Shown in pieces: positions 1,068 to 61,200 of a stretch of 64,000 nt of DNA. The notes below the pieces were generated by a model that was not told the origin of the DNA, did not search any database, and saw only the letters and a program-made list of their open reading frames with translations. Origin of the DNA: Heterodontus francisci. Lineage: Eukaryota. Position numbers and translations under genes: made by a program. Numbering within the stretch: the first letter of the stretch is position 1; each line of letters begins with the position of its first letter. Where the stretch lies: NCBI RefSeq assembly GCF_036365525.1, contig NC_090415.1, forward strand, positions 13,702,001 through 13,766,000, read 5' to 3'.

Positions 1068-2155
1068 GACAGCGCTTCTGATATGTCTTCCTTTTTTCTC
1101 AACCGAGGATACCCTTGTCCTCACTTTCCACCCCATCAGCCTCCACATCCAAAGAATCATCCTCCGCCATTTCTGCCACCTCCAGCGTGATGCCACTACC
1201 AAATACATCTTCCCCTCCCTTCCCCTGTCAGCATTCCGAAGGGATCATTCCCTCTGCGACACCCTGGTCCACTCCTCCATTACCCCCACCACCTTGTCCC
1301 CTTCACATGGCACCTTCCCCTGCAATCACAGGAGATGTAATACCTGCCCATTTTACTCCTCTCTACTCACAATCCCAGGCCCCAAACACTCCTTTCGAGT
1401 GAAGCAGCGATTTACTTGTACTTCTTTCAACATGGTATACTGTATTCGCTGCTCACAATGTGGTCTCCTCTACATTGGTGAGACCAAACATATACTGGGT
1501 GACCGCTTTGCGTAACACCTCCACTCAGTCCGAAAGCATGACCCCGAGCTTCCGGTTGCTTGTCATTTCAACACTCCCCCCTGCTTACATCTCTGTCCTG
1601 GGATTGCTGCAGTGTTCCAGTGAACATCAAGGTAAGCTCGAGGAACAGCATCTCATTTACCGATGAGGCACAATACAGCCTGCCAGACTGAGCATTGAGT
1701 TCAATAATTTCAGAGCATGACGGGCCCCCCAATTTACTTTTATTTTTAGTTATTCTTTCCTTTTTATCTTTATTTTTATATTTATTTTATTTAATATCAC
1801 CTCAGTTGGTTCAGTTTGCTTACCCACTTTTCTTTCATGTTTGTACTTGCGGCTGTTTAATTTTCATCCATTAACACCCTATCTGTCCGAATGCTTTGTC
1901 TTTCAACACACCATTAACATAATGTTTGCCTTTGCTCCATGACCTTCTGGTCAGCTATTCTGTGACATTTTCCTTTCTACACCTTCTCCCTTGTTATCTC
2001 TTGCCCCACCCCCGCTTTACTTGCTTAACACTTTTCACATTTCTAATATTTACCAGTTCTGAAGAAGGGTCACTGACCTGAAATGTTAACTCTGCTTCTC
2101 TCTCCACACATGCTGCCAAACCAGCTGAGTATATCCAGCATTTCTTGTTTTCATT
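1068..2155 (+). mobile_element. Penelope-like element, 5'-truncated: GIY-YIG endonuclease remnant plus terminal repeat with hammerhead motif; 15-bp TSD
   Basis: Translation has CNHRRCNTC and NMVYCIRCSQCGLLYIGET (GIY-YIG-like). TSD atgaaagatttatat at 1053-1067 and 2156-2170; empty site at 30300-30314. Confidence 0.85.
2055..2091 (+). ncRNA. Minimal type-I hammerhead ribozyme motif (stem III variant gaaatgtt)
   Basis: AGTT-CTGAAGA-A-GGGTC act GACCT-GAAA-TGTT-AACT: CUGANGA/GAAA core, stem II, stem I AGTT/AACT. Confidence 0.55.
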
Positions 2156-7659: not shown

Positions 7660-9190
7660 TCTGTAGCTGTTCATCAATGGTACAGTCTGAGTGTAGAACT
7701 TATTCTGCATCTGCCACTCTGAAAGACAGGATCTGTTTGTTTATATTTAAGGAACAATGAAGGAGCTCTTACACACCTAGATCTGTCCAAATATCTGTCC
7801 CTCTTTGTATGGTATGTGTGTGAGGGATTCATTCTTTATCTCAGAATGTGGAATGTGACTATATTTATCTCTGTCACTTACTGATATGTGCATGTGCACT
7901 TTTCACTCTACCTGCCAGCTTCTGATGTGAGTGGATTTTTTTCTGCACCTGTCATTTACTGATGAATTGAATGGTGGTTTTGGTTTGAATCGCTCACTTT
8001 CTGTTACGTGAATATGAGTATTCCTTCGTACTTGTCAATTACTGGTATTGAAGTAAGATCTTTAAACTGCACCTAATACAAAGCAAAATACTGTTAATGC
8101 TGGAAATTGGAAATAAAAGCAGAAAATTCGGTAAATACACAGCAGGACTGCCAGCATCTGTGGAGACAGAAACAGAGTTAGCCTTTCAGGTCAATGACCT
8201 TTCATCAGAAAGGTCTGTCCTGATCAAAGGTCATTGACCTGAAATGTGAACGGAATTTCTCTCTCCACAGGTGCTGCCAGACTTGCTGAGTATTTCCAGA
8301 ATTTTCCATTTTCATTTACACTGTACATGGACATGTACATTTTCTGGCAAGTGAATGTGGGATCAATATTTAACCTTTCAGTTCTGATACGCAAATGAGG
8401 ATTTTACCCAGCATGTTGTCAGTTCCTGCAGTGCAATTATCTGATTTATTCTGTAACTTTATGATTGTGGTAATTGATTGTGGGTTTGACCCTACATCTA
8501 CCAGTCTCTGTAATGTGAATGTGGCTATTACTCTGTATTTATCGGTGTACAATTTGTGAGTGTGTGTTTTGCTCTCTGTGTCTGTTTCTGACATGTAAAT
8601 GTGGATTTTGCTATGTACCTCAGTTACTTTATGTGTATGTGCTTCATTCTGTTTCTGTCCATCTGTTGTGAGCGTAATATTTTCCCTGTACCTATCAGCA
8701 TCACACTTCTTTGTATGGCCATTATTCTGCACTTGTTGGTTTATGGTACTGCTTGAATTACTCTTTCCCTCTCATTCCCTGATATGCTACTGTAAATTTT
8801 CCTCTGTACTTGGAAGATTCCACTCTGTGATAATGTTGTTTCTCTGTCTGTCTGCGTCTGGTATGCTATTGTAAGATTCACTGTGTGCCCATCAGCTTCT
8901 GGTATTTAAATATGAAGTTCACATTGTAACATTCAATTTGATCTGTGTGAATCTGCTTCTACCTTGAACTGACAGTTTCTATTCTGTGAGTGTACATTTA
9001 CAAGTGTGCTTGTTAATTTCTGCTAAATAACTGTTTGTTTTACTCTGTGCATGTCAGTTGCTGCAATGGGAAGATGGGAAAGGTTTTTAATTCTGAAAAT
9101 GGCAATTACCGATAAGTAAATGTGGGTTTTACTCGGTAACCCTCATTCTCTGGTATTTGAGTTTGTTTCTTTTTATTCTGGTTAGCTGTC
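7660..9190. repeat. Degenerate ~41-bp tandem array, block (interrupted by palindromic element)
   Basis: Same T/G-rich unit; paralogous to ~36430-37950. Confidence 0.6.
8075..8318. mobile_element. Palindromic mini-element made of two inverted Penelope terminal arms
   Basis: Left arm ...gcatctgtggagacaga..tttcaggtcaatgacctttcatcag is the reverse complement of right arm ctgatcaaaggtcattgacctgaaatg..ctctctccacaggtgctgccag; very short spacer. Confidence 0.75.
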
Positions 9191-9199
9191 ACACTCACT

Positions 9200-11365
9200 T
9201 CTCTGAAGTAAACATCTCATGAACCGTCTCCAACACATTTACTTCCTTCATTAAATAAGGAGTCCAAAACTGCACACAGTATTCTAGATTGGTCTCAGCA
9301 ATGCCCTGTATAACTGAAGTACAACAGGCTTATTTTCATTTTCAATTCCTCTCGTAATACTGGATAGCATTCCATTTGCCTTCCTTCTGTCTTGCTGTAA
9401 CTGCACCCTAACTTTTTTGACTCATGCACTAGAACACCTAGATCCCTCTCCAGAATTCTGCAGTCGCTCAGCACTGAAGTATTTTTAAATCTTCCTGACA
9501 AAGTGAACAACTTCCCATTTTCGCACATTGTACATCATCTGCCAGATTCCTGCCCACTCACTCAACCTACATATATCAGTCTTCAACTTCCTTATGTCCT
9601 CTTCACAACATACATTCCTACCTATCTTTGTTTCATCTGCAAATTTAGCTGCCATGTCATCACTCCCCTCATCTACGTCATTGATATAAATTGTAAAAAG
9701 TTGAGGCCCCAGCACTCGTCACATCCTGCCAATCAGAAAAGGACCCATTTCTGCATTCTGTGTGTTCTGCCAGCCAGTCAATCTTCTATCCATGCCAATA
9801 TGTTACCCATGAGCTCCTACTTTGCACAATAACCTTTTATGTGGCAACTTGTCAAATGCCTTCTGGAAATCCAAGTACTGTATGTCAAACAGGTTCCTCT
9901 TTATCCACAGTGCATGTTAGTCCTTCAAGGAACTTCAATAAATAGGTTAAACATGATTTCCCCTTCACAAAACCATGTTGACTATTCCTGATGACCTTAT
10001 GTTTCTCAAAATGCCCAGCTATAGCCTCCTCATCGATCAATTCTACCACCTTCCTCATGACAGGGGTCAAGCTAACTGGCCTATAGTTAATGTTAACTTT
10101 GCATCTCTCTCCACAGATGCTGCCAGACCTGAGTATTTCCAGCACTTTTTGTTTTGTTTCAAATTTCCAGCATCTGCAGTATTTTGCTTTTATATTACTG
10201 TAGTTACCCTGTCTCTGCTTCCACACCTTCTCGAATAGAGGGATTATATTTTCTACTTTCCAGTCTGATGTAACCCAGTTCACTTCAGCTAGCTCAACTT
10301 TCATGCCCACATAGCTGTCCTTATTTAAGTTTAAAATACTAGTCTTAGATCCACTCCTCTCATTTTCAAACTGGATGTAAACCTCAATCATATTGTGATC
10401 ATTGCTACCAAGAGGTGCAGATACTCTGAGGTCATTAATTAATCCTGTCAAATTACACAATACCAAGTCTAATATAACCTGCTCGCTGGATGGTTCTAGA
10501 AGATGCTGCTCAAAGAAACTATTTCGAAACCATTCTATGAACTCCTCATACAGGCTTCTGTTACCAATCTGATTTTTTCCAGTTTTTATGAAGATTAAAA
10601 TCACCCATGATTATTTCCATCCCTTTATCACAAGCACCCATTAGTTATTCTTGTAGACTTCATCCTACATTGTGATTACTGTCTGCGGGCCTGTAGACTA
10701 CTCCCACTAGTGCCTTTTTTCCCTGACTGTTCCTCATCTCCAGCCAAACCAATTCTACATACTGATCTCCTGAACCAAGGACATGTCTAACTATTGCACT
10801 AATGCCATCCTTGATTAACAGTGCCACCCCTCCAACTTTACCTAGCTTCCTATTCTTCTTGAATGTTACACATCCCTCAATATTGAGGACACAATCCTTG
10901 TCATCCTGCAGCCATGTCTCCATAATGGCTATTAGATCATATTTATTTACTTCAACATGTGCTATCAGTTTCTTTACTTTGTTATGAATGCTCCGTGCAT
11001 TCACATACAGAGCCTTTAGTTTTATCTTTTTGTTATCCTTGTAACATCTAGTGTTGACTGTTGGTCTGCTCTTAGTTTTTTTTTCCTCTGTGTCCCTTCC
11101 TGTCATTCTCTGGCTTTCATTTCCCCGGTTTCTATTCTGTTTTCCTGCCTTGACTTTATCCCTTGGTTTGTTACATCTGCTAAAGCTTGTTCCCCTCCCC
11201 CTTTGTTTAGATCAAGTACCTCTCTACATCCCTAGTTATACGGTTTGCTCGAACACTGGTCCCAGCTTGGCTCAGGTATAGACTGTCCGAATGGTACAGC
11301 CTCCACTTTCCCTAGTACTGGTGCCAGTGCCCCACAAACTGAACCTGACTTCTCCCACACCAGTC
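9200..11365 (-). mobile_element. Decayed CR1 LINE (APE and RT fragments)
   Basis: NARSIHNK, METWL, GVVYRP, SQHGFVKGKSCLT and KFADETK motifs on the minus strand. Confidence 0.85.
10091..10197 (+). mobile_element. Solo Penelope terminal-arm mini-insertion within CR1
   Basis: atgttaact..ctctctccacagatgctgccagacctg..gcagtattttgctttt, flanked by imperfect direct repeat ctatagtta/ctgtagtta; paralog at ~59760-59870. Confidence 0.65.
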
Positions 11366-22350: not shown

Positions 22351-22727
22351 ATAATAATAAAAGCAAAATACTGCGGATGCTGGAAATCTGAAATAAAAAC
22401 AAGAAATGCTGAAAATACTCAGCATGTCTGGTAGCATCTGTGGAGGGAGAAGCAGAGTTAACGTTTCGTGTTAGTGACCTTTCTTCGAACCCCTTCACCC
22501 CTATGTCACCTTCACCTGTATCATCAGAGAGAGAGACACACACAGACAGACATAGTCCCTCACTCGCTCAATCAGTACTACAACAGAATACATACATAAA
22601 ACACTCACTAACTGTATCGTGAACATAGATACAGCACCAAAGGCAGAGGGAGAGAGACAGTTCCGAAGAAAGAATCACTGACCCGAAACGTTAACTCTGT
22701 TTCTCTCTCCACAGATGCTGCCAGACC
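22351..22727. mobile_element. Inverted pair of Penelope terminal arms enclosing an inverted copy of the local flank
   Basis: Arm 22351-22490 (-) and arm 22659-22727 (+); interior 22506-22660 is the reverse complement of 22186-22308 plus ~35 extra nt. Confidence 0.75.
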
Positions 22728-23735
22728 TTTTGGAAATGTAAGACTGATACACTCTCTCTCTCCCTCTCTCACCCCTCTCTCTCTTTCACTCTCCCTCTCT
22801 CTGTCCCTCTGTTGCTGTATATTAAAGGGTAATGGTGTTATTGAGCGTGTTATGGACACGCTGAACAGACGGTGTTTTCAGTCCTGCATCGAAGGACGGA
22901 GAGAACCAGCCTGTCACTGCCTGGAACAAAAAAAAACACAGCGTCTGAATGTGGGATTATTCTGTAACTGGACATCTCTCCTTGTTGACAATGGGATGTC
23001 TGGGACACCTGGAAAAATATGGATAGACTATAGGAAGAGACAGTCGATCATTTGTATTTTCACCGTCAGGAAACATGTTTCTGTGTGCGATCAATAACAT
23101 CAAACCGGACAGTAGTTTGAACACATTCAAAGCTGTGATTTGCTCTTGCCGTCGAACCTAATAAACAGACAACATTCGCAGCGCCAGTCTCAGAGTGTTT
23201 AACACTTACTGAGTCTAGAAAATACAAATACCCACCGTGAATCCGCAGCACAGGCCGAGCGGAGGGGAAATCCTGTCCTGGGAACGCTAAATTGAGCGAA
23301 CAGTTCGGCCTAAGATTGTGTGGATGTGAATATTGTGGAAGAGAGTGTATTAAAGGGGCGGGCGCGTTCGTCTAATGCCACTGTGTTTGTGGGTCTGGTC
23401 TCATCGCCGGATTTCCGAGTCCCTCTTGTGTAAAATAACAAGATTTTCCAGTCAAAGAAGCACTTTGCTCCCCTTCTAATCCTCAAAGTGGGAATTCAGT
23501 GTTGTTTGTTTGTTGATTTCAAGATTTTAATCGAAAAGTATGGAACATGTCAGCGATCGGCTGAGAGAGAGTCATCAGTGCAGCAATGAAACGGGTTTCA
23601 GTCGAAAATGGAGTCTTTACTTCAAGCGAAACCTTTGTGACAGCAAACATTCTGATGTCAGAGACAGGAAGGATCTAGCCTGGGACTCTGGAATACCCGA
23701 ATTTCAGTGGAATTGGAGAGTTTAGGACCAGAGAG

Positions 23736-28182: not shown

Positions 28183-28574
28183 GATCTCTTGTTCATTCCA
28201 GCACATAAACGTCTCAGAAGGTTTTGACCATTTATTTACTCAAAGCCGGGAGACACAATTACTTATATCTGCATCCGGTAGCTGGAGATTTCATGACGTG
28301 TCTGTTGTAAGATCTAGAGTAGCGATACCAATGTGCACAGCGCATTTTAATAGACCGGCGATCGTTTTAGGACTGAACAAATGTTTGTGATACATAAAGG
28401 GTAGAATGGTAAAAGTGCCTTTCTAATAGGGTCTGAGGGAATTAGAATGTATTTCATCTGATGAGCAACTAAATGCCAAAATCCAGTACTCTTCATTCCA
28501 ACACAAAACAACGATAACAGTACAATATTACAGTCTTTCAGACAGTAACCAGCCCTTTCACAGATAAAGTGGGT

Positions 28575-28756
28575 GGCTCTGAAAAGAGCCTTTGGGTTCA
28601 CAGATTCAAGTCAGGCCGCTTCACTTGCCCTTCGTGCTCGGAGCGCTGGTTTTCTTGGGCAGCAGCACGGCCTGGATATTAGGCAGCACCCCGCCCTGAG
28701 CGATGGTCACCCCTCCCAACAGCTTGTTCAGCTCCTCGTCGTTGCGGACGGCCAGC
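28575..28756 (-). pseudogene. H2A: H2A remnant: last ~44 codons, stop (28621-28623) and intact stem-loop (28575-28590); 5' part and promoter deleted
   Basis: Minus strand [44 protein letters not shown]; match to the 53547-53682 copy stops abruptly at 28756. Confidence 0.93.
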
Positions 28757-29030
28757 CAATATATTTGTAAAACAAATGTACTTATTCGTAAAGATAGACA
28801 AACTTCAACACGGCAACCAAGTAACTGAGAACATCTTTAAATCATGCGTTAAATCAGCTTTCATTTTCGAAATATAGCAAAGGGGCCGAATGAATCTGTA
28901 TTAACCTGAACTGACCGGATTTAAACAGAGATTTACAACCGCCATCAAAAATTTGCAGAGTATTCGTATTAACATAAAAAGAATTCGATAATCATGATGA
29001 TGTTGTAGCTATTTCAGAGAAATTGTGGGT

Positions 29031-29046
29031 GGCTCTTAAAATAGCC
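29031..29046 (-). terminator. H2B stem-loop with a stem mismatch
   Basis: Minus strand GGCTAT-TTTA-AGAGCC (A.G mismatch) versus GGCTCT in the paralog. Confidence 0.8.
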
Positions 29047-29084
29047 TTGTTTGTATATTGTGTTTTTCAGTCCATGGCGGATAT

Positions 29085-29925: not shown

Positions 29926-30579
29926 ATCTGTCTGATTGGATATCTAAAGTAACCAATCACACTTCATGCCTATCACAGCCACAAACTGACGCAGCAGTCA
30001 GATCGTCCAAACCCCTTTGCCCGCCCTTAACCATGACTTTCTGAGTCCCTCTGTCTCTTCAACCATTTCCATTTTGCTGGTATGAACACGTCCATTTTTT
30101 CACTCTGTACATATAATTTCTTGACCCTTCCATTCCTTATCAGGATGTACCGCCCTGCTGCACTTCCCTCCATCACCAGGACGGAACCGTCCAGTATAGT
30201 TGGGGTCAGACATGGGCAAATGCAAGCATTGAAGTGCAAGTCTTTAAATCTATGTTGCGTGCCAAATAAGGTTGGTCAGCTGCAGCCACAAGTTACCACA
30301 TGAAAGATTTATATAGTGGCAATTACATAATTCTGGCTGAAACTAGGCGAGGCATAGGAACTTATTATTACTGGCTACAAATATTCAGCAAGACAGGTCT
30401 GAAAAAATATGGAGGGTTGTGGAGTGGAAAGAGTTGATCAAATATAATATGATAACACTGGCAGCGATGATGTTTTTGAGTTGTTAACAAAAGAATCTAT
30501 TTGGTCATATATACGGAATATGGCAGGAGGAAATGCATGGACATTCTGGGTCGTGTCATGTTTGTCTTTCCCTGCAGGG

Positions 30580-35409: not shown

Positions 35410-37950
35410 CTTTGCACCTGTCAGTTTCTGGTCTGGAATAAATGTCTTTACTCTGTACCTGCTCGTTACTGGCAGGTGATTGTGACATCACTCCATATCT
35501 GTCAGAGTCTGATGTGACTTCAGATTTTATTCTTCAGCTGTCAGTTTCTGACACGTGAATATGGATTTTCCTGTGTTCCAGTCACTTACTACAATCTCCA
35601 TTGCTCCTTTATTCTGTGCCTGTCAGTTTCTGGTCTGGAAGAAAGATTTTTTCATTACCTTTTATATTCTGCCAAATGAATGCGAGATCACCCTGTATCA
35701 GTCTGTTTGTGACCAGTTACTGTGGTTTTTACTCATCAACTGTCAATTTCTGATACGTGAATGTGAATTTTATTCTTTAACCATCAGTCTCTACAATGCA
35801 AGTATGTATTTTATTCTTAACCTGTTGGTTTCTTTCAACTGATTGTAGCTTTTTACTCTTTACCTGTCAGTCTCTGGTATGTGAATGTGGCTATTACTCG
35901 GTGTCTGTCTGTGTCGGATTTGCTAGCAAGTGTTTTGCATTGCCTTTCTGTTCCTGACATGTGAATGTGAATGTTACTCTGTACCTCTCAGTTACTGGTA
36001 TGTGATTGTGGGTTTTATTCTGTATCCATGAGCCTATGATTTGTGATTGTGTCTTGTGTCCTAGGCATGTCAGTATCTTGTTTGTATTTACCCATTATTA
36101 TGTGCATGTTGCTTTATGGGAAATGATGATAGGATTAACTCTTCTTTTTTGCCATATTACCACTATGGCCTCAAGAGCTGCTCAGAGGCTGGGAATTCTG
36201 TGATGGGTAACTCATGTCCTAACTCCCCAAAGTCTTTCCACCACCAACAAGCTATAAGTCAGAATTCTGATGGATTACTCTCCACTTGCCTGGATGAGTG
36301 CTCAAACAACACTCAAGAAGCTCAATACCGTCCAAGGCAAAGCAACAGGCTTGATTGGTTTACCTTTCACCAGTTTAAGCATTTACTCCCTCCACCAGCA
36401 GTGCACAGTGTTTACAGCTGTGTATATGCATGATATTCGTTCTGTGTCTGTTTATCACTGGTACAGTATGAGTGTGGAAGTCATTCTGCATCTGTTACTC
36501 TGAAAGGTGGGATCTGTTTGTTTATAATTAAGGAACAATGAAGCGGCTCTTATACACCTAGATCTGTCAAAATACATGTCCCTCTTTGTATGGAATGTGA
36601 GTGAGGGATTCATTCTTTATCTCTGAATGTGGAATGTGACTGTTGGTATTACTATGTACCTGCCAGCTTATGATATGTAACTAGGGCTCTTTCTCTGTAT
36701 CTGTCACATACTGATAAGTGCATGTGTTCTTTCCATTCTACCTGCCAGCTTCTGATGTGAGTGTGGGTTTTATTAAGTACTGATCAGCCTCTGGTATGCA
36801 TGTGTTTCTTTTATAATGTACCTGCCAATTTCTGCTGAATTGAACGGGGGTTTTGATTTGAATCTGTTACCTTCTGTTATGTCAATGTGAGTGTTCCTTT
36901 GTACTTGTCAATTTCTTCTCCTGAAGAAAGGTGTTAAAACTGCAACTAATACAAAGCAACAGACTGTGAATGCTGGAGATGTGAAATTAAAACAGAAAAT
37001 GCTGCAAATACTCAGCAGGCCTGCCAGCATCTGTGGAGACAGAAACAGAGATAACCATTCAGGTCAATGGTCTTTCATCAGAAAGGTCCGTTCTGATCGA
37101 AGGTCATTGACCTGAAATGTTAACTCACTTTCTCTCTCTACAGGTGCTGCCAGATTTGCAGATTATTTCCAGCATTTTCTGTTTTCATTTCCACTGTACA
37201 TCGTATATTCTGGCAAATGAATGTGGGATTAATCTTTAACCTTTGGTTTCTGATCTGTAAATGTGGATTTTACCTAGCATGTTGTCAGTTACTGCAATGC
37301 AAATATCTGTTTTATTCTGTAACATTTTGTTTGTGGTAATTGATTGTGGGTTTTACTCTGCATCTGCCAGTCTCTGTAATGTGAATGTGGCTTTTGTCTG
37401 TGCATGATTTGTGAGTATGTGTTTTACTTTCCCTGTATGTTTCTTAATGTGGATTTTGCTATGTACCTCAGTTACTTTATGTGTATATGTTGTATTCTGT
37501 TTCTGTGCATCGATGGTGAGTGTAACATTTCCCCTGTATCTATCAGAATCACTCGTGAGGATGGTCATTATTCTGTACATGTTGGTTTATGGTAGTGCTT
37601 GATTTACACTTTTTGGTCACTCTCTGATACGCTACTATACAGTTTACTCTGCACTTGTCAGATTCTGCTATGTGATATTGTCTTTTATCTATCTGTCTGT
37701 GTCTGGTATCCTATTGCAAGTTTTACGGTATACCCATCAGCTTCTGGTATTTAAGTATGAGGTTCACATTGTATCTTTCATCTTGTTCTGTGTGAATCTG
37801 CTTCTGCCTTGAACTGACAGTTTCTACTCTGTGAGTGTACATTTGAAGGGTGCTTGTTAACTTCTGCTAAATAGATGATAGTTTTACTCTGTGCATGTCA
37901 GTCACTGCAATGGGAAGTTGGGATTCATGCTGTATCTGCCATTTGATTTA
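35410..37950. repeat. Degenerate ~41-bp array, block containing a LINE fragment (~36140-36420) and a palindromic element
   Basis: Paralogous to 6160-9080. Confidence 0.65.
36947..37192. mobile_element. Palindromic Penelope-arm mini-element (paralog of 8075-8318)
   Basis: ttcaggtcaatggtctttcatcagaa / ttctgatcgaaggtcattgacctgaaatgttaact. Confidence 0.75.
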
Positions 37951-46814: not shown

Positions 46815-48365
46815 TGTATTCAGGACTTAATATATATTTCAGGCACTGTGTTGGCAATGCTTTGTTTCACACGTTAATGTATCAATATGTGTTTAATTTA
46901 AAATATGGATAAACAAAATTTTATTGCTGTAGGTTTTATGCAATTCTTGTTTGAGTTGCAGTTTGGTATCCAATTGTCGCTCTGAAAAAGCAATTATGAA
47001 TGACGAGCTTTTAATTTTAGAACATGACCTGATATGTAATGTCAAATTCCATCCGTTTGTAGAAAATGAATTAATCCTATGTGTTTTTGTCTGACCCTCA
47101 GTAACATGTTTGGACTGATGTGTAATTTGAAGCTCAGTTTATAGTGTGGGGTACGTTATTGGGATTCATTCTGTAGCTTTCAATCAGGTACATTTTGTCT
47201 GTTCTACTTAAGATTTGGGAATTGATTTGTAGTCAAGGCAACACAATGTATTTAAATCTGATAATGTGTGTGTTTTTGGACTGTGATTGATATCTCTACC
47301 AGTCAGTTGGAGTGAAATAGAAATGACGACTATCTCTAATGCTCTGTTTGACTATTGAATTGATAATGTGTCTCTTTGGGATCAGTGTGGGTCTGACTAC
47401 TTCTTTTGTTTGTTACACTGAAAATGACGACCTGACCATGTCAGTGTGCTTTGTGACTGATACTGTACCTACTGTGTATTGCAACGAGCTGGATGCACAT
47501 TTCCTTCTGTCGAGGAGTCATGCCTTTCCTTCTGGTTCCTTCAAGTGTTTGCCTGCAGGAAAAGAAAGTTAACTCTTATACTTGAATAACAGCTGAGTGA
47601 GAAGACAGAAAAGTGATCAACGTAATCTTTACAATAATAAACATTCTGAACAATCACAAAAGGAAAGTCAACAACACAAGCAGTGTCAGTGTCTGAGTCC
47701 ACTGCAGTACTGCAGAACTCTGCTTCTACTTGCCAGGTATTTGGAGCGGTTTTATAACAATTTTGTGACATTCAAAAACAACCCAAGCCCCGCACTGCTC
47801 CATGAATTGGAATACCCGATCGAGTAGTGACATTTGTGTAAGCCAGATTTCTATTTCCATGTCCCATTGTTCAACGGACAACAAGTAAGCACTGTTTAAA
47901 AAAGTGTCCTTAATCTTCTCACCTGGTCCCTTCAAATCTGCCGCATCTTTATTGTTCAGACATTTTTTTCTGCTGTTCACTATCCAATAACAATAAATAG
48001 TGAGATACTGGATCTGAACCAGGAACATTCATTACTGAAGAAGGGTCACTGACCTGAAGCGTTAACTCTGCTTCTCTCTCCACAGATGCAAATAGACCTG
48101 CTGAGTATTTCCATGATTTCTTGTTTTTATTTCAAATTTCCAGCATCCGCAGTATTTTGCTTTTTATTATAACATTCATTACTGTTTGGAGAGAGAAATC
48201 AGCAATGATTTTCAATAGTGAGTTCATCATATTCTGTCTCTCTCTCCCTGTCCAGACACTGCCTGAGAAAGACCTCTCCCTTCCCCCCCAGCTCACTCCA
48301 TGTTCCAGGACCAGTTCCTGCTCCACAATGTACATTACAAACTGTCCCCCACTCCCGCTGAATGT
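46815..48365. repeat. Local duplication, copy 2 of 40910-42682
   Basis: Direct sequence match. Confidence 0.85.
48038..48170 (+). mobile_element. 133-bp solo Penelope-arm insertion with 14-bp TSD
   Basis: TSD aacattcattactg at 48024-48037 and 48171-48184; empty site at ~42491-42504. Confidence 0.85.
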
Positions 48366-51560: not shown

Positions 51561-52004
51561 AGCAAGGAAGTGAATCTGATTGGATGTTGAGAATATTTTG
51601 TAAGTCTTATTTCTGAATTTGCATTGACATTTTTAAACTGCAAAATTCCACAGCACACTTGACCATCAACTTTAAGGGAGAAGAACATAATGTTGAGAAT
51701 ATTTGTCATCTTCAATTTAGTCATGGCTTTTCATTTGTCACATTCTGTAGCAAGGTTGCAGAAATATATTTGACCGCGAGTGGGCATTGCAATGACCGGG
51801 AATCTAATCTGGGTCAATTGTTTGGAAGGCAGATATACTCACCACTATACCAGCATCGCTGGTATACATGTAGCTCGTCATTTATACAGTATACACACCA
51901 GAGCTCATTGGAACTCAAATGTCATTTCAACCATTTCAATCTGCACCTGAACACCACGTTCATGTTCCCATTGGAGGATAGAATCATGGAATGGTTACAT
52001 CATC

Positions 52005-55502: not shown

Positions 55503-55863
55503 TTTTGTGCTTCTCACAGCCACAAACTGTCGCAGCAGTCAGATCGTCCAAACCCCTTTGCCGGCCCTTATCCATCGACATCAGTGACTTTCTGAGTCCC
55601 TCTTCCTCATCAACCATTTCTATTTTGCTAGTACGAACTCGTCTCTTTTTTCACTCTACGTATAATTTCTCTAAAGTTCCCTTCCTTATCAGGATGTAGC
55701 GCCCCTCTGCACTTCCGACCATCAACAGGACCGAATCGTCCAGTATAGTGAGGGTCAGACTGGGGCAAATGCGAGCATTGAAGTGCAAGTCCTTATCTCC
55801 ATGTAGCGTGCCAAATAAGGTTGGTCAGCTGCAGTCACAAGTAACCACATGAAAGATTTATAT

Positions 55864-56953
55864 GACAGCGCTTCTGATATGTCTTCCTTTTTCCTCAACC
55901 GAGGATACCCTTGTCCTCACTTTCCACCCCATCAGCCTCCACATCCAAAGAATCATCCTCCGCCATTTCTGCCACCTCCAGCGTGATGCCACTACTAAAT
56001 GCATCTTCCCCTCCCTTCCCCTGTCAGCATTCCGAAGGGATCATTCCCTCTGCGACACCCTGGTCCACTCCTCCATTACCCCCACCACCTTGTCCCCTTC
56101 CCACGTCACCTTCCCCTGCAAACACAGGAGGTGTAATACCTGCCCCTTTACCTCCTCTCGCCTCACAATCCCAGGCCCCAAACACTCCTTTCGAGTGAAG
56201 CAGCGATTTACTTGTACTTCTTTCAATATGATAGACTGTATTCGCTGCTCACAAAGTGGTCTCCGCTACATTGGGGAGACCAAACGCATACTGGGTGACC
56301 GCTTTACACAACACTTCTGCTCAGTCTGAACGCATGACCCCGAGCTTCCGGTTGCTTGTCATTTCAACACTCCCCCCCTGCTCTCATGCTCATATCTCTG
56401 TCCTGGGATTGCTGCAGTGTTCCAGGGAACATCAACGCAAGCTCGAGGAACAGCATCTCATTTACTGATCAGGCACAATACAACCTGCCAGACTGAGCAT
56501 TGAGTTCAATAATTTCAGAGCATGACTGGCCCCCCATTTTACTTTTATTTTTAGTTATTCTTTCTTATTTATATTTATTTTTCTGTTTATTTTATATCAT
56601 CTTAGTTGGTACAGTTTGCTTACCCACTTTTTTTTCCATGTTGGTACTTGTGGCTATTCAAATTTCATCCATTAACACCCTATCTGTACTAATGCTTTGT
56701 CTTTCAACACACCATTAACATAATGTTTGCCTTTGATCCATGACCTTCTGGTCAGCTATTCTGTGACGTTGTCCTTTCTACACCTTCTCCTTTGTTATCT
56801 CGTGCCCCACCCCCGCTTTACTTCCTTAAAACATTTCACATTTCTAATATTTACCAGTTCTGAAGAAGGGTCACTGACCTGAAACGTTAACTCTGCTTCT
56901 CTCTCCACAGATGCTGCCAAACCAGCTGAGTATATACAGCATTTCTTGTTATT
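55864..56953 (+). mobile_element. Penelope-like element (same insertion as 1068-2155)
   Basis: Same truncation point and TSD (55849-55863; 56954-56968); CIRCSQSGLRYIGET. Confidence 0.85.
56856..56892 (+). ncRNA. Minimal type-I hammerhead ribozyme motif, best-preserved copy
   Basis: AGTT-CTGAAGA-A-GGGTC act GACCT-GAAA-C-GTT-AACT; palindromic AACGTT in place of the stem III loop. Confidence 0.65.
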
Positions 56954-57234
56954 ATGAAAGATTGAGATCGTGACCATTCCATATTTCTGGCTGAAACTCG
57001 GTGAGGCAAGGGAACTTATTATTACTGGCGACAAATATTCAGGAAAGATAGGTCTGAAAAATATGGAGGGTTGTGCAGTGGAAGGAATTGATCAAATATA
57101 ATATGATAACACTGGCAGGGATGCTGTTTTTGAGGTGTTAACAAAAGCATCTATTTGGTCATATATGCGGAATATGGCAGGAGGAAATGCATGGACATTC
57201 TGGGGCGCGAAATATTTGCCCTTCCCTGCAGGAC

Positions 57235-58215: not shown

Positions 58216-61200
58216 GAGAGTTATACAGCACAGAAACAGGCCCTTTGGCCCATTGTGTCTCTGCCTCCCATCAAGCATGAATATATTCGAATCACATTTG
58301 CCAGCACTTGGCCCATAGTCTTGTATGCTATGGCGTTTCAAGTGTTCATCTAAATCCTTCTCAAATGCTATGAGGGGTCCTGACTCTACCAGCCCTTCAG
58401 GTAGTGTGTTCCAGATTCCAACCACACTCTGTGTGAAATATTTTCTCCTCAAGTCCCCTCTAAACCTGCTGCCCATTACTGAAATCTATCTCCCCTGGTT
58501 ATTGATCCCTCCACTGAGGGAAACGTTTTCTTCCTATCTTTACTATCAATGTCCCGTCTAATTTTGTATACCTCAATCAGTTCCCCCCTCAGCCTTCTCT
58601 GCTCCAAGGAAAACAACCCTAGCCTATCCAGTCTCTCTTCATAACTGAAATGCCACAGCCCAGGAAACATCCTGATGAATCTCCTCTGCACGCTCTCCAT
58701 TGCAATCACTTCCTTCCTTTGGTGAGTTGACCAGAACTGTACACAGTACTCCAGCTGTGGCCTAACTAGCATTTCATTCAGCTCCCTCATAACCTCCCTG
58801 CTCTTATATTCTCATTCTCTGGTATATGAGTTTGTGTCTTTTTATTCTGGTTAGCTGTCACACTCACTTCTCTGAAGTAAACATCTTATGAACCGTCTCC
58901 AACACATTTCCTTCCTTTATTAAATAAGGAGACCAAAACTGCACACAGTATTCTAGATGTGGTCTCACCAATGCCCTGTTTCACTGAAGTATAACGGGAT
59001 TATTTTCATTTTCAATTCCTCACGTAATACTGGATAGCATTCCATTTGCCTTCCTTCTGTCTTGCTGTAACTGCACACTAACTTTTTTGACTCATGCACT
59101 AGAACACCTAGATCCCTCTCCAGAATTCTGCAGTCGCTCAGCACTGAAGTATTTTTTAATATTCCTGACAAAGTGAACAACTTCCCATTTTCTCACATTG
59201 TACATCATCTGCCAGATTCCTGCCCACTCACTCAACCTACATATATCAGTCTTCAACTTCCTTATGTCCTCCTCACTACATACATTCCTACCTATCTTTG
59301 TTTCATCTGCAAATTTAGCTGCCATGTCATCACTCCCCTCATCTACGTCATTGATATAAATTGTAAAAAGTTGAGGCCCCAGCACTCGTCACATCCTGCC
59401 AATCAGAAAAGGACCCATTTCTGCATTCTGTGTGTTCTGCCAGCCAGTCAATCTTCTATCCATGCCAATATGTTACCCATGAGCTCCTACTTTGCACAAT
59501 AACCTTTTATGTGGCACCTTGTCAAATGCCTTCTGGAAATCCAAGTACTGTCTGTCAACCGGGTTCCCCTTTATCCACAGTGCATGTTAGTCCTTCAAGG
59601 AACTTCAATAAATAGGTTAAACATGATTTCCCCTTCACAAAACCATGTTGACTATTCCTGATGACCTTATGTTTCTCAAAATGCCCAGTTATAGCCTCCT
59701 CATTGATCAATTCTACCACCTTCCTCATGACAGGGGTCAAGCTAACTGGCCTATAGTTAATGTTAACTCTGCATCTCTCTCCACAGATGCTGCCAGACCT
59801 GCTGAGTATTTCCAGCACTTTTTGTTTTGTTTCAAATTTCCAGCATCTGTAGTATTTTGCTTTTATATTACTGTAGTTACCCTTTCTCTGCCTCCACACC
59901 TTCTCGAATAGAGGGGTTATATTTTCTACTTTCCAGTCTGATGTCACCTTTCCAGAATCTTACGAATTTTGAAAAATTAACACCACCAAATCTATTACTT
60001 CCGTAGCCACCATTTTGAAACTCCTAGGATGAAGCCCATCGGGATCCGTGGACTTGTCAGCCCGTTGCTCCATCACTTTACTCAGTACCACTTCCCTGGT
60101 GATTGTAATTTCAACAAGTTCCTCTCTTCCATCCACCTCCTGATTTACAGCTATGATGGGAATGTTTTTTGTATTTGCTACAGTGAAGATAGAAGCATTT
60201 TTTAATGTACATTTCTTCTGTCATTTCCTTATTCTCAACCTTTAACTCCTAATTTTCATTCTCTAGAGGACCCAACACTCAATTTACTTGCACTTTTCCT
60301 TTTCTAATACCTGTGGAAACTCTTGCTATCAGTTTTTAGATTTCTAGCTAGCTTACACCCATGCTCTAATTTATTTTCCTGATTAACCTTTTAGTTATTC
60401 TCTGCCATTCTATATATTATGACCAATCATCTGACCTGCCACTCATCTTTGCACAATTCTCTGCCTTTTCATGCAGGTTGATGCCTTCCTTATCTTCTTT
60501 AATCAACCATGGATTGGGATCCTCCCCTTGGAATTATTTTTCGTAGTAGGGATATACTTATTTTAAGTATTCTGAAATATCCACTTAAATGTCTGCCACT
60601 GCTTCTCTATTGAACTATCTCTTGGCCCAGTAACCCAGTTCACTTCAGCTAGCTCAGCTTGTATGCCCACATAGCTGCCCTTATTTAAGTTTAAAATACT
60701 AGTCTTTGACCCACTCCTCTCATTTTCAAACTGGATGCAAACCTCAATCATATTGTGATCATTGCTACCAAGAGGTGCATATACTCTGAGGTCATTAATT
60801 AATCCTGTCAAATTACACAATACCAAGTCTAATATAACCTGCTCACTGGACGGGTCTGGAAGATACTGCTCAAAGAAACTATTTTGAAAGCATTCTATGA
60901 ACTCCTCATACAGGCTTCTATTACTAATCTGATTTTTTCCAGTTTATCTGTTGATTAAAATCACCCATGATTATTTCCATCTCTTTATCACAAGCACCCA
61001 ATAGTTATTCTTGTAGACTTCATCCTACATTGTGATGACTGTCTGTGGGCCTGTAGACTACACCCAATAGTGCCTTTTCCCCCGACTATTCCTCAACTCC
61101 ACCCAAACCGATTCTACATCCTGATCTCCTGAACCAAGGTCATGTCTAACTATTGCACGAATGCCAATCTTGTTTAACTGTGCCACCCCTCCAACTTCAC

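What the first reader, a model, noticed from the sequence alone, without database searches (positions are those of the whole stretch)
56856..56892. Minimal, probably dimer-dependent hammerhead ribozyme in Penelope termini, with related arms across the window
Seen: AGTT-CTGAAGA-A-GGGTC(act)GACCT-GAAA-CGTT-AACT. It has stem I (AGTT/AACT), the CUGANGA and GAAA core boxes, a 5-bp stem II, a GUU cleavage triplet, and a loopless palindromic stem III (AACGTT). Related arms lie at 2055, 8175/8220, 22456/22659, 37050/37092 and 48035, with partial arms at 10091 and 59760. Established: Penelope-like elements carry minimal hammerheads that cleave as dimers. Inference: this shark family uses the same mechanism; the extra A after CUGAAGA is a core variant.
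Basis: partly seen in the sequence, partly recalled or inferred. Interest (0 to 1): 0.7.

Follow-up and report, generated by a model that had tools for sequence, protein, structure and literature searches.

The report
Shark Penelope retroelement's minimal hammerhead
This is a real copy of the tiny self-cutting RNA motif already known from Penelope-type jumping genes, sitting in a dead fragment. Across this genome most copies were likely made from uncut RNA that likely begins at the motif, and the youngest, most abundant subfamily changed a core letter, so cutting is likely slow or optional.

Summary
Observation confirmed. Bases 56856-56892 form a minimal type I hammerhead at the end of a dead, 5'-truncated Neptune-type Penelope-like element (55864-56953, 15-bp target duplication, empty paralogous site at 30300). 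This is a known kind (Cervera and De la Pena 2014). The 'extra A' is that kind's consensus, not a variant. The 11 arms are 5-6 insertions; only two are intact, and the close pairs lie on opposite strands, so they cannot dimerise in cis. Genome-wide, three age-ordered subfamilies change pair 10.1-11.1 from A-U to G.U (this copy, 5,119 exact) to G-C. The youngest also carries U4C (28,152 exact copies), shown by a CpG-decay control. Of 100 copies, 34 start at helix I, 29 nt behind a TATA-like box, and 2 near the cut site. So uncut RNA is likely the template. Apparent cut-site starts are partly explained by helix-I snap-back and by a second transposon that inserts at the triplet. Cleavage and dimer dependence are untested. 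The scan reported the start-site and U4C readings before, on other windows of this and other genomes.

The parts
56856..56892 (+). Minimal type I hammerhead motif, middle-aged subfamily (U4, G10.1.U11.1 wobble, unpaired A after A9, no loop 3); predicted cut after 56888
55864..56953 (+). 5'-truncated Penelope-like element copy (about 1.09 kb) that carries the motif
   Evidence: alignment to full-length L071 at 86%; target duplication
55864..56525 (+). Broken 3' end of the RT-endonuclease ORF with the C-X4-C-X2-C linker and GIY-YIG remnant; stop at 56523-56525
   Evidence: translation; Pfam GIY-YIG E 0.008, below the curated cut-off; intact relatives
56526..56855 (+). 3' UTR / upstream part of the pLTR
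   Evidence: follows the endonuclease in all 40 loci fetched
56827..56831 (+). TATA-like box (TAAAA here, TATAA in 52 of 58 young copies), 29 nt before helix I; promoter role inferred
56893..56953 (+). Downstream pLTR: upstream ATG at 56911; the copy ends at the first of the two family 3' end clusters
55849..55863 (+). Target-site duplication, left copy (15 bp)
56954..56968 (+). Target-site duplication, right copy (13 of 15 match; perfect in the 2055 duplicate)
30300..30314 (+). Empty target site in a paralogous histone-cluster unit
2055..2091 (+). Segmental duplicate of the same insertion (C15.2 decayed to U); not independent
8075..8317 (.). Head-to-head inverted pair of old-subfamily arms (A10.1-U11.1), both damaged
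36948..37191 (.). Duplicate of the 8.2 kb inverted pair
10089..10201 (+). Partial arm without the catalytic core, inserted in a LINE-like repeat
59759..59874 (+). Duplicate of the 10091 partial arm (96.8% with flanks)
22356..22487 (-). Damaged short arm, divergent from the 22658 arm
22658..22728 (+). Short arm of the young type (CCGA core, C11.1) with a damaged helix II
48035..48171 (+). Short arm with a 13-bp target duplication (48025-37 / 48172-84); A15.1 changed, helix I 5' strand missing

Best explanation
The motif is a minimal hammerhead of the kind known from Penelope-like elements, lying in the end repeat of a dead, truncated Neptune-type copy; in the active element it likely forms the first 37 bases of the transcript and is likely a slow, conditional cutter rather than a required processing step. 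Shown: the fold, the element, the target duplication, two same-strand motifs about 3.25 kb apart in full-length copies, and no loop 3, so no monomer helix III. Inferred: transcription starts at helix I behind a TATA-like box. Reverse transcription starts at two internal sites about 62-76 and 101-117 nt past the cut site, on uncut RNA, and runs off the RNA's 5' end, giving the many 100-140 bp stubs, or jumps to another template. Cutting would need the second motif (4-bp ACGU helix III) and probably the element's protein. It would remove the capped first 33 nt, so it would act as an off-switch or timer. The youngest subfamily spread with U4C, a change reported to lower activity.
For: Fold above chance. 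EN-UTR-motif order in 39 of 40 fetched loci outside C45. Full-length L071 and L097 have motifs 3,254 and 3,220 nt apart. 5' ends: 34 of 100 at helix I (22 within 3 nt), 2 of 100 near the cut site, 38 of 100 longer than 100 nt (Fisher p 8e-20, arms not fully independent); 7 of 37 at helix I in random stretches. 3' ends fall in two clusters, 51 and 46 of 100, with none between, like the two internal RT start sites of Anolis PAc. TATAA at -29 in 52 of 58 young copies that keep the upstream pLTR. Exact genome counts: C4/C11.1 28,152; U4/U11.1 5,119; U4/C11.1 1,298 against the opposite-strand CpG control 1,161. Age order: 6.1, 3.2 and 1.1% divergence; CpG kept in 14/28, 27/37, 86/93. All CCGA copies fall in one derived clade of a UTR-only tree. 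PAc's motif cuts only with protein and cutting is dispensable for insertion in vitro. U4C lowers activity in vitro yet works in a viroid.
Against: No cleavage, cap or start site was measured; only Logan contigs of runs guessed to be RNA were available. 12 of 17 independent insertions that carry the ORF start extend at least 140 nt upstream of helix I, which needs a longer, circular or jumped template and fits the cut-and-circularise model as well. Cut RNA may simply not be copied, so the copies say little about how often cutting happens. The same upstream letters also fit a 3' splice site, as in D. virilis. U4/C11.1 slightly exceeds its control (137 copies, p 0.006), so a small canonical intermediate lineage is possible. 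The tree's root is weak and the clade support is 0.77-0.96. A comprehensive mutagenesis study found low activity for single mutants in the CUGA turn, so the young form may be inactive rather than slow.
Confidence: 0.5

Rival explanations
1. Dimer cut-and-circularise: the motifs of the two pLTRs pair through ACGU, cut out a unit-length RNA of about 3.25 kb, and the ligated circle is the template for long copies.
For: Two complete same-strand motifs in full-length copies. A start at helix I keeps the 5' motif whole. 12 of 17 ORF-start insertions are longer than one unit at the 5' side. The fold is kept through three subfamilies. S. mansoni dimers cut weakly and monomers not at all.
Against: U4C swept the youngest subfamily. 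No peak of copy starts at the cut site. In the nearest-neighbour model the double hammerhead (-8.5) lies far above a helix II duplex (-20.8), and with its 3' flank the window copy keeps helix II with P about 0.25. PAc insertion does not need cutting. Template jumps or tandem read-through explain long copies too; one junction joins ORF sequence exactly to the helix I start.
Confidence: 0.27
2. Vestige: the motif no longer cuts in this lineage. It is kept because it overlaps the transcription start and 5' leader, or simply because the subfamilies are closely related.
For: U4C fixed; G.U at the normally G-C pair in the middle subfamily; only one covarying pair, not above shuffles; no Rfam match; Naiad PLEs spread without canonical motifs.
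Against: The other subfamily changes in the motif fall at N7, loop 2 and a pair that stays paired, and the pair moved to the canonical G-C. U4C is a natural variant that is active in a viroid.
Confidence: 0.15
3. The boundary at helix I is a 3' splice site (or a structural RT stop), not the transcription start, as in D. virilis Penelope where the intron ends at helix I.
For: A pyrimidine tract and YAG end exactly in the helix I 5' strand in all three subfamilies; published precedent.
Against: Copies that start at helix I share no upstream exon sequence. The TATA-like box at -29 fits initiation. No such joint among those listed from contigs (8 and 4 joints not shown).
Confidence: 0.08

Closest known systems
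Minimal hammerheads (min-HHR) in pLTRs of metazoan Penelope-like elements (Cervera and De la Pena 2014, PMC4209133; main text parts 1-2 of 4, supplement file 2 part 2 of 3 and a term search)
   Same: Type I, 4-bp helix I, CUGANGAH with the unpaired base, GAAA-C-G-U-U without loop 3, palindromic 15.2-16.2, position in the pLTR, mostly solo copies in truncated elements.
   Different: No cartilaginous fish in the alignment part read ('shark' 0 hits). This copy has G.U and the old subfamily A-U at 10.1-11.1, although G.U also occurs in listed examples. U4C in the youngest subfamily is not in the part read.
PAc Poseidon element of Anolis carolinensis (PMC11167929; passages and section 3 part 2)
   Same: Hammerhead near the pLTR-ORF junction; two internal RT start sites bounding a 30-40 nt tail; uncut RNA as template.
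   Different: Different clade (this family has the Cys linker). In PAc the ORF starts at helix II; here an upstream ATG lies 22 nt past the cut site and the main ATG 117 nt further. PAc cleavage was assayed; this one was not.
Neptune-clade EN+ Penelope-like elements (PMC8557442 and PMC3846280, passages)
   Same: RT, CX2-5CxxC linker, C-terminal GIY-YIG; pLTRs, head-to-head inverted copies, optional tail; TATA and Inr-like motifs noted in a rotifer pLTR.
   Different: Clade assigned from the linker only, which Nematis shares; no tree with named reference elements was built.
U4C natural hammerhead of a viroid (as cited in Perreault et al. 2011, PMC3088659; passages and section 8; the original paper was not held)
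   Same: Same core change.
   Different: There a rare variant backed by tertiary contacts; here the master sequence of more than 28,000 genomic copies of a minimal motif.

Membership tests
PLE minimal hammerhead | Core boxes CUGANGA and GAAA with NUH | tested here: met
   Window copy; the youngest subfamily departs at U4 (79 of 93 have C)
PLE minimal hammerhead | [quoted passage not shown] | tested here: met
   A in 167 of 169 arms with a whole core
PLE minimal hammerhead | Helices I and II form; helix III reduced to a palindrome without loop | tested here: met
PLE minimal hammerhead | Highly conserved G10.1-C11.1 pair | tested here: inconclusive
   G.U in this copy and its subfamily, A-U in the old one, G-C in the young one; G.U occurs among published members
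PLE minimal hammerhead | Located in the pLTRs of a PLE | tested here: met
   39 of 40 loci; both ends of L071 and L097
PLE minimal hammerhead | Statistically supported covariation | tested here: inconclusive
   One pair changes on both sides; 156 of 500 shuffles reach it
PLE minimal hammerhead | Self-cleavage as a dimer or with helper protein | not testable with these tools
   No assay; no raw reads were offered
Rfam hammerhead families | Match to a curated covariance model | tested here: not met
   No hammerhead family among 13 matches at E <= 10
EN+ Penelope-like element | Single ORF with RT and C-terminal GIY-YIG | tested here: met
   Frames in L062, L063, L071, L097; Pfam RVT_1 and GIY-YIG E about 1e-3, below the curated cut-offs; homologues carry the same domains
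EN+ Penelope-like element | pLTRs, inverted 5' copies, optional 30-40 nt tail, target duplication | tested here: met
Neptune clade | CX2-5CxxC linker between RT and EN | tested here: met
   C-X4-C-X2-C; definition
Neptune clade | Groups with named Neptune RTs in a tree | not tested
   No named reference set was fetched
Non-LTR retrozyme | Tandem head-to-tail short units, each with a complete motif | tested here: not met
   No tandem array holds the motif in the window; no same-strand intact neighbour

The most novel reading that the evidence does not exclude
In shark Neptune elements the hammerhead is the capped first 37 nt of the transcript and acts as a self-destruct switch, not a processing tool. 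The RT makes a strong-stop-like cDNA from uncut RNA that is integrated, snaps back through helix I, or jumps. The U4C change that weakens cutting helped the youngest subfamily to outgrow its predecessors. The three dated natural versions (U4 A-U, U4 G.U, C4 G-C) give a ready test of whether cleavage rate trades off against retrotransposition.
Probability: 0.22. Interest if true: 0.65.

Novelty: new member of a known kind. Interest (0 to 1): 0.35.

Why it matters
What PLE hammerheads do is still open (stated in PMC8557442; only PAc has been reconstituted). The motif itself is ordinary and this copy is dead. The family offers a natural series of three age-ordered ribozyme versions, with tens of thousands of insertions whose ends record the RNA template. 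If the inference holds, cutting is not what defines the copied RNA, and a weakened core is compatible with, perhaps favourable to, spread. The two artefact classes found here (helix-I snap-back, a second transposon at the triplet) matter for anyone who reads 'copies starting at the cut site' as a fossil of cleavage. Seven literature searches listed no paper that describes a shark PLE hammerhead or U4C in a retrotransposon. The 2026 retrozyme preprint includes one chondrichthyan and its supplements were not seen.

Tried and rejected
1. Rfam scan: no hammerhead match. 2. The top 40 DNA hits of the motif all lie on C45 (8.8-14.2 Mb) and are duplicates within a histone-cluster amplification, so they were not used as independent copies. 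3. A 96-nt GT-AG intron that would fuse the upstream ATG to the main ORF: no such joint among 15 of 23 and 15 of 19 joints shown; not supported, not excluded. 4. Contig depth as evidence of expression or start site: rejected, because the runs are only guessed to be RNA and depth follows genomic copy number. 5. Three DNA searches with the 66-nt tail returned nothing because common words are skipped. 6. Cap-derived extra G: the base before helix-I starts was G in 4 of 10 (start at A) and 5 of 12 (start at G); inconclusive. 7. Cleavage footprint: 5,546 copies lack the GAAA box before the tail. By eye about 10 of the first 100 begin at the cut site, with similar numbers one base either side. 4 of those are snap-back junctions (4 of 4 inspected). 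Many others are interrupted by a TIR element (both halves seen in 5 of 13 inspected) or are small deletions. 8. The 5' end cluster at 262-264 nt is probably an alignment break at a subfamily indel and was not interpreted. 9. CpG decay as the origin of the window's U4 and U11.1: rejected, about 60 expected against 5,119 seen. 10. The original U4C viroid paper was not held.

Full report
1. Observation. They fold as helix I (4 bp) and helix II (5 bp, 3-nt loop), which is also the RNAfold MFE of the isolated motif, -5.9 kcal/mol. After GAAA come C-G-U-U, so 15.1-16.1 read ACGU with no loop: a monomer cannot close helix III. A descriptor for this fold finds 2 places in the window and none in 400 strand-level Markov resamples. 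It finds 18 in 800 kb of randomly placed G000 stretches and none in 10 resamples. Rfam has no hammerhead among 13 matches at E <= 10.

2. The other arms. All exist, but self-BLAST shows that 2055 duplicates 56856 with flanks, 8.2 kb duplicates 37.1 kb, and 10091 duplicates 59760. The 11 arms are 5-6 insertions. Only 2 pass the descriptor. The close pairs are head-to-head on opposite strands, so they cannot form a double hammerhead on one RNA. The 40 best genome hits of the motif region are all on C45 between 8.8 and 14.2 Mb. The window holds histone genes with stem-loops, so these hits reflect amplification of a histone-cluster unit.

3. The element. The motif ends a 1.09-kb insertion, 55864-56953, flanked by a 15-bp target duplication; the unoccupied site survives at 30300-30314 in a paralogous unit. 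It carries the broken 3' end of an ORF with a C-X4-C-X2-C linker and a GIY-YIG remnant (Pfam E 0.008, under the cut-off). The protein search gave 84,651 first-look candidates, of which 150 were scored. I fetched 40 of the matches outside C45, and 39 show endonuclease, UTR and motif in order. L071 and L097 are full length, with same-strand motifs 3,254 and 3,220 nt apart around an RT-EN frame. Among named homologues the highest identities (62-71%) are cartilaginous fishes. The Cys linker marks Neptune or Nematis (PMC8557442 and PMC3846280 passages). A 35-letter tail pattern has 90,896 exact matches; 37 looser matches in 800 kb extrapolate to roughly 280,000.

4. The extra A is not a variant. 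Cervera and De la Pena (PMC4209133; parts 1-2 of 4 and supplement part 2 of 3 read; supplement file 1 not searched) list a base between positions 9 and 10.1 as a conserved trait, with consensus CUGANGAH, and many members end in C-G-U-U. Here it is A in 167 of 169 arms with a whole core.

5. Three subfamilies. Of 216 arms collected from selected and random loci, 169 had a whole core. I classed them by tail letters outside the motif, and the older group by position 10.1; 11 mixed arms were dropped. Old (28): CUGA, A10.1-U11.1, 6.1% divergence, CpG at 15.2 kept in 14. Middle (37, includes this copy): CUGA, G10.1.U11.1, 3.2%, kept in 27. Young (93): C at position 4 in 79, G10.1-C11.1, 1.1%, kept in 86. 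Exact 35-mer counts in G000: C4/C11.1 28,152, window form 5,119, fully canonical U4/C11.1 1,298, and the opposite-strand CpG product 1,161. So canonical-looking young copies are mostly decay of a CCGA master; the excess of 137 (p 0.006) leaves room for a small intermediate lineage. The window form is about 85 times the 60 expected from double decay, so it is a separate older master. A FastTree built only on 230 nt of UTR from 81 copies puts all CCGA copies in one derived 58-leaf clade (support 0.77, parent 0.96), with the window copies basal; the root is poor. In contigs laid on a C4 reference, U at position 4 had 33% of depth in organism A, 14% in B, 21% in C (depth 89 only) and 70% in D, a hint that the C4 form is shared with relatives.

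6. What the copy ends record. I took the first 100 exact tail matches on C1, chosen without regard to the 5' side; they include some duplicates and both arms of inverted pairs. 3' ends fall in two clusters, 51 and 46 copies, about 62-76 and 101-117 nt past the cut site, none between, 3 shorter. This matches the optional tail and the two internal RT start sites of Anolis PAc. 5' ends: 34 at helix I (22 within three bases), 2 near the cut site, 19 inside the motif, 1 further downstream, 6 at 46-100 nt and 38 beyond 100 nt. The random sample gives 7 of 37 at helix I. These copies span the cut site, so their template was uncut. TATAA lies at -29 in 52 of 58 young copies and TATAA or TAAAA in 16 of 20 middle copies that keep the upstream pLTR. 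The start context resembles an initiator (consensus recalled, not from a call). A start at helix I is therefore inferred. The same letters fit a 3' splice site as in D. virilis, but the copies share no leader exon. An extra cap-derived G could not be shown.

7. Is there a cleavage footprint? Earlier scan notes suggested one. A pattern for tails that lack the GAAA box has 5,546 matches. By eye about 10 of the first 100 begin at the cut site, no more than one base either side. Four of these join the cut site to the 5' end of a complete inverted copy through shared AAC (4 of 4 inspected), which helix I complementarity explains as cDNA snap-back without cleavage (inference). Many others are old copies interrupted by a TIR element whose 3-bp target duplication is the triplet itself (both halves found in 5 of 13 inspected). 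I find no footprint above background, but cut RNA may not be copied at all.

8. Dimer model. It remains open. Full-length transcripts would hold both motifs. 12 of 17 independent insertions with the ORF start run at least 140 nt upstream of helix I, 3 start at it, 1 inside and 1 just upstream; 14 loci of one amplified insertion were counted once. This needs a circle, a jump or tandem read-through. In that amplified insertion ORF sequence joins exactly to the helix I start, which fits a jump. Nearest-neighbour energies favour a helix II duplex over the double hammerhead (-20.8 against -8.5), though such models omit core contacts. Published tests: S. mansoni monomer no cleavage, dimer low; PAc cleavage only with protein, not needed for insertion, and no read ends at the site. 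U4C lowers activity in vitro but supports viroid infectivity (PMC3088659), while a full mutagenesis found low activity for CUGA-turn single mutants (PMC9901934 passages).

9. RNA data. Only contigs of runs guessed to be RNA were offered. They cover the element but show no start, end or strand. A candidate 96-nt intron between the upstream ATG (stop at codon 31 in the copies read) and the main ATG was not among the joints shown.

10. Verdict. A real but ordinary motif in a dead copy: new member of a known kind. The family-level points (start at helix I, uncut template, U4C) were reached here before the look-up (notes) and had been noted by other agents on this and other genomes; those notes are not evidence. 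Added here: the dated three-step series with a CpG control, the empty site, and two artefact classes at the cut site. Literature searches listed no description of a shark PLE hammerhead or of U4C in a retrotransposon. The 2026 preprint (10.64898/2026.07.22.740005; part 1 of 5 and passages) covers one chondrichthyan, and its supplements were not seen. PMC6155905 and PMC1636495 were seen as passages only. Interest 0.35.

Noticed in passing
L346, L317, L318, L326, L308 (G000:C1): A GC-rich element with terminal inverted repeats (58-870 bp) sits exactly at the hammerhead's triplet in old copies, with the triplet as a 3-bp target duplication; it makes up a large share of the first 100 matches. PIF/Harbinger-like by recalled features only.
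   Followed up: partly
L331-L334: Inverted pairs joined through helix I complementarity (5' end of one arm to the cut site of the other), a possible cDNA snap-back.
   Followed up: partly
L103-L105, L107-L109, L113-L115, L124, L125, L127-L129 (C34, C66, C1097): One amplified deleted element: motif, tail, about 430 nt of ORF, second motif 585 nt later on the same strand; both motifs are damaged and the junction falls at the helix I start.
   Followed up: partly
window 23.7-29.6 kb and 53.5-55.4 kb; C45 8.8-14.2 Mb: Replication-dependent histone genes (H1, H4, H3, H2B twice, H2A) with 3' stem-loops. At least 40 duplicated units on C45 carry the same Penelope insertion, which could serve as a marker for the cluster's duplication history.
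   Followed up: partly
L116:1708-1822 (minus strand); window 56911: A 30-codon upstream ORF, in frame with the main ORF, starts 22 nt past the cut site. A candidate 96-nt GT-AG intron would remove its stop and contains both 3' end clusters.
   Followed up: partly
window 28550-28595, 29007-29051: A histone stem-loop at 28.55 kb for which I tested no matching ORF (the region aligns with the H2A region at 53.0-53.7 kb), and a sub-threshold one at 29.0 kb; possibly decayed units.
   Followed up: no
window 51788-51859: tRNA-like Rfam match just under the gathering score, not called by ARAGORN; possibly a SINE head.
   Followed up: no
L064:4870-9001 (minus strand): An 859-codon open frame of a LINE-type element with endonuclease and RT, lying directly beside a Penelope copy.
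   Followed up: no
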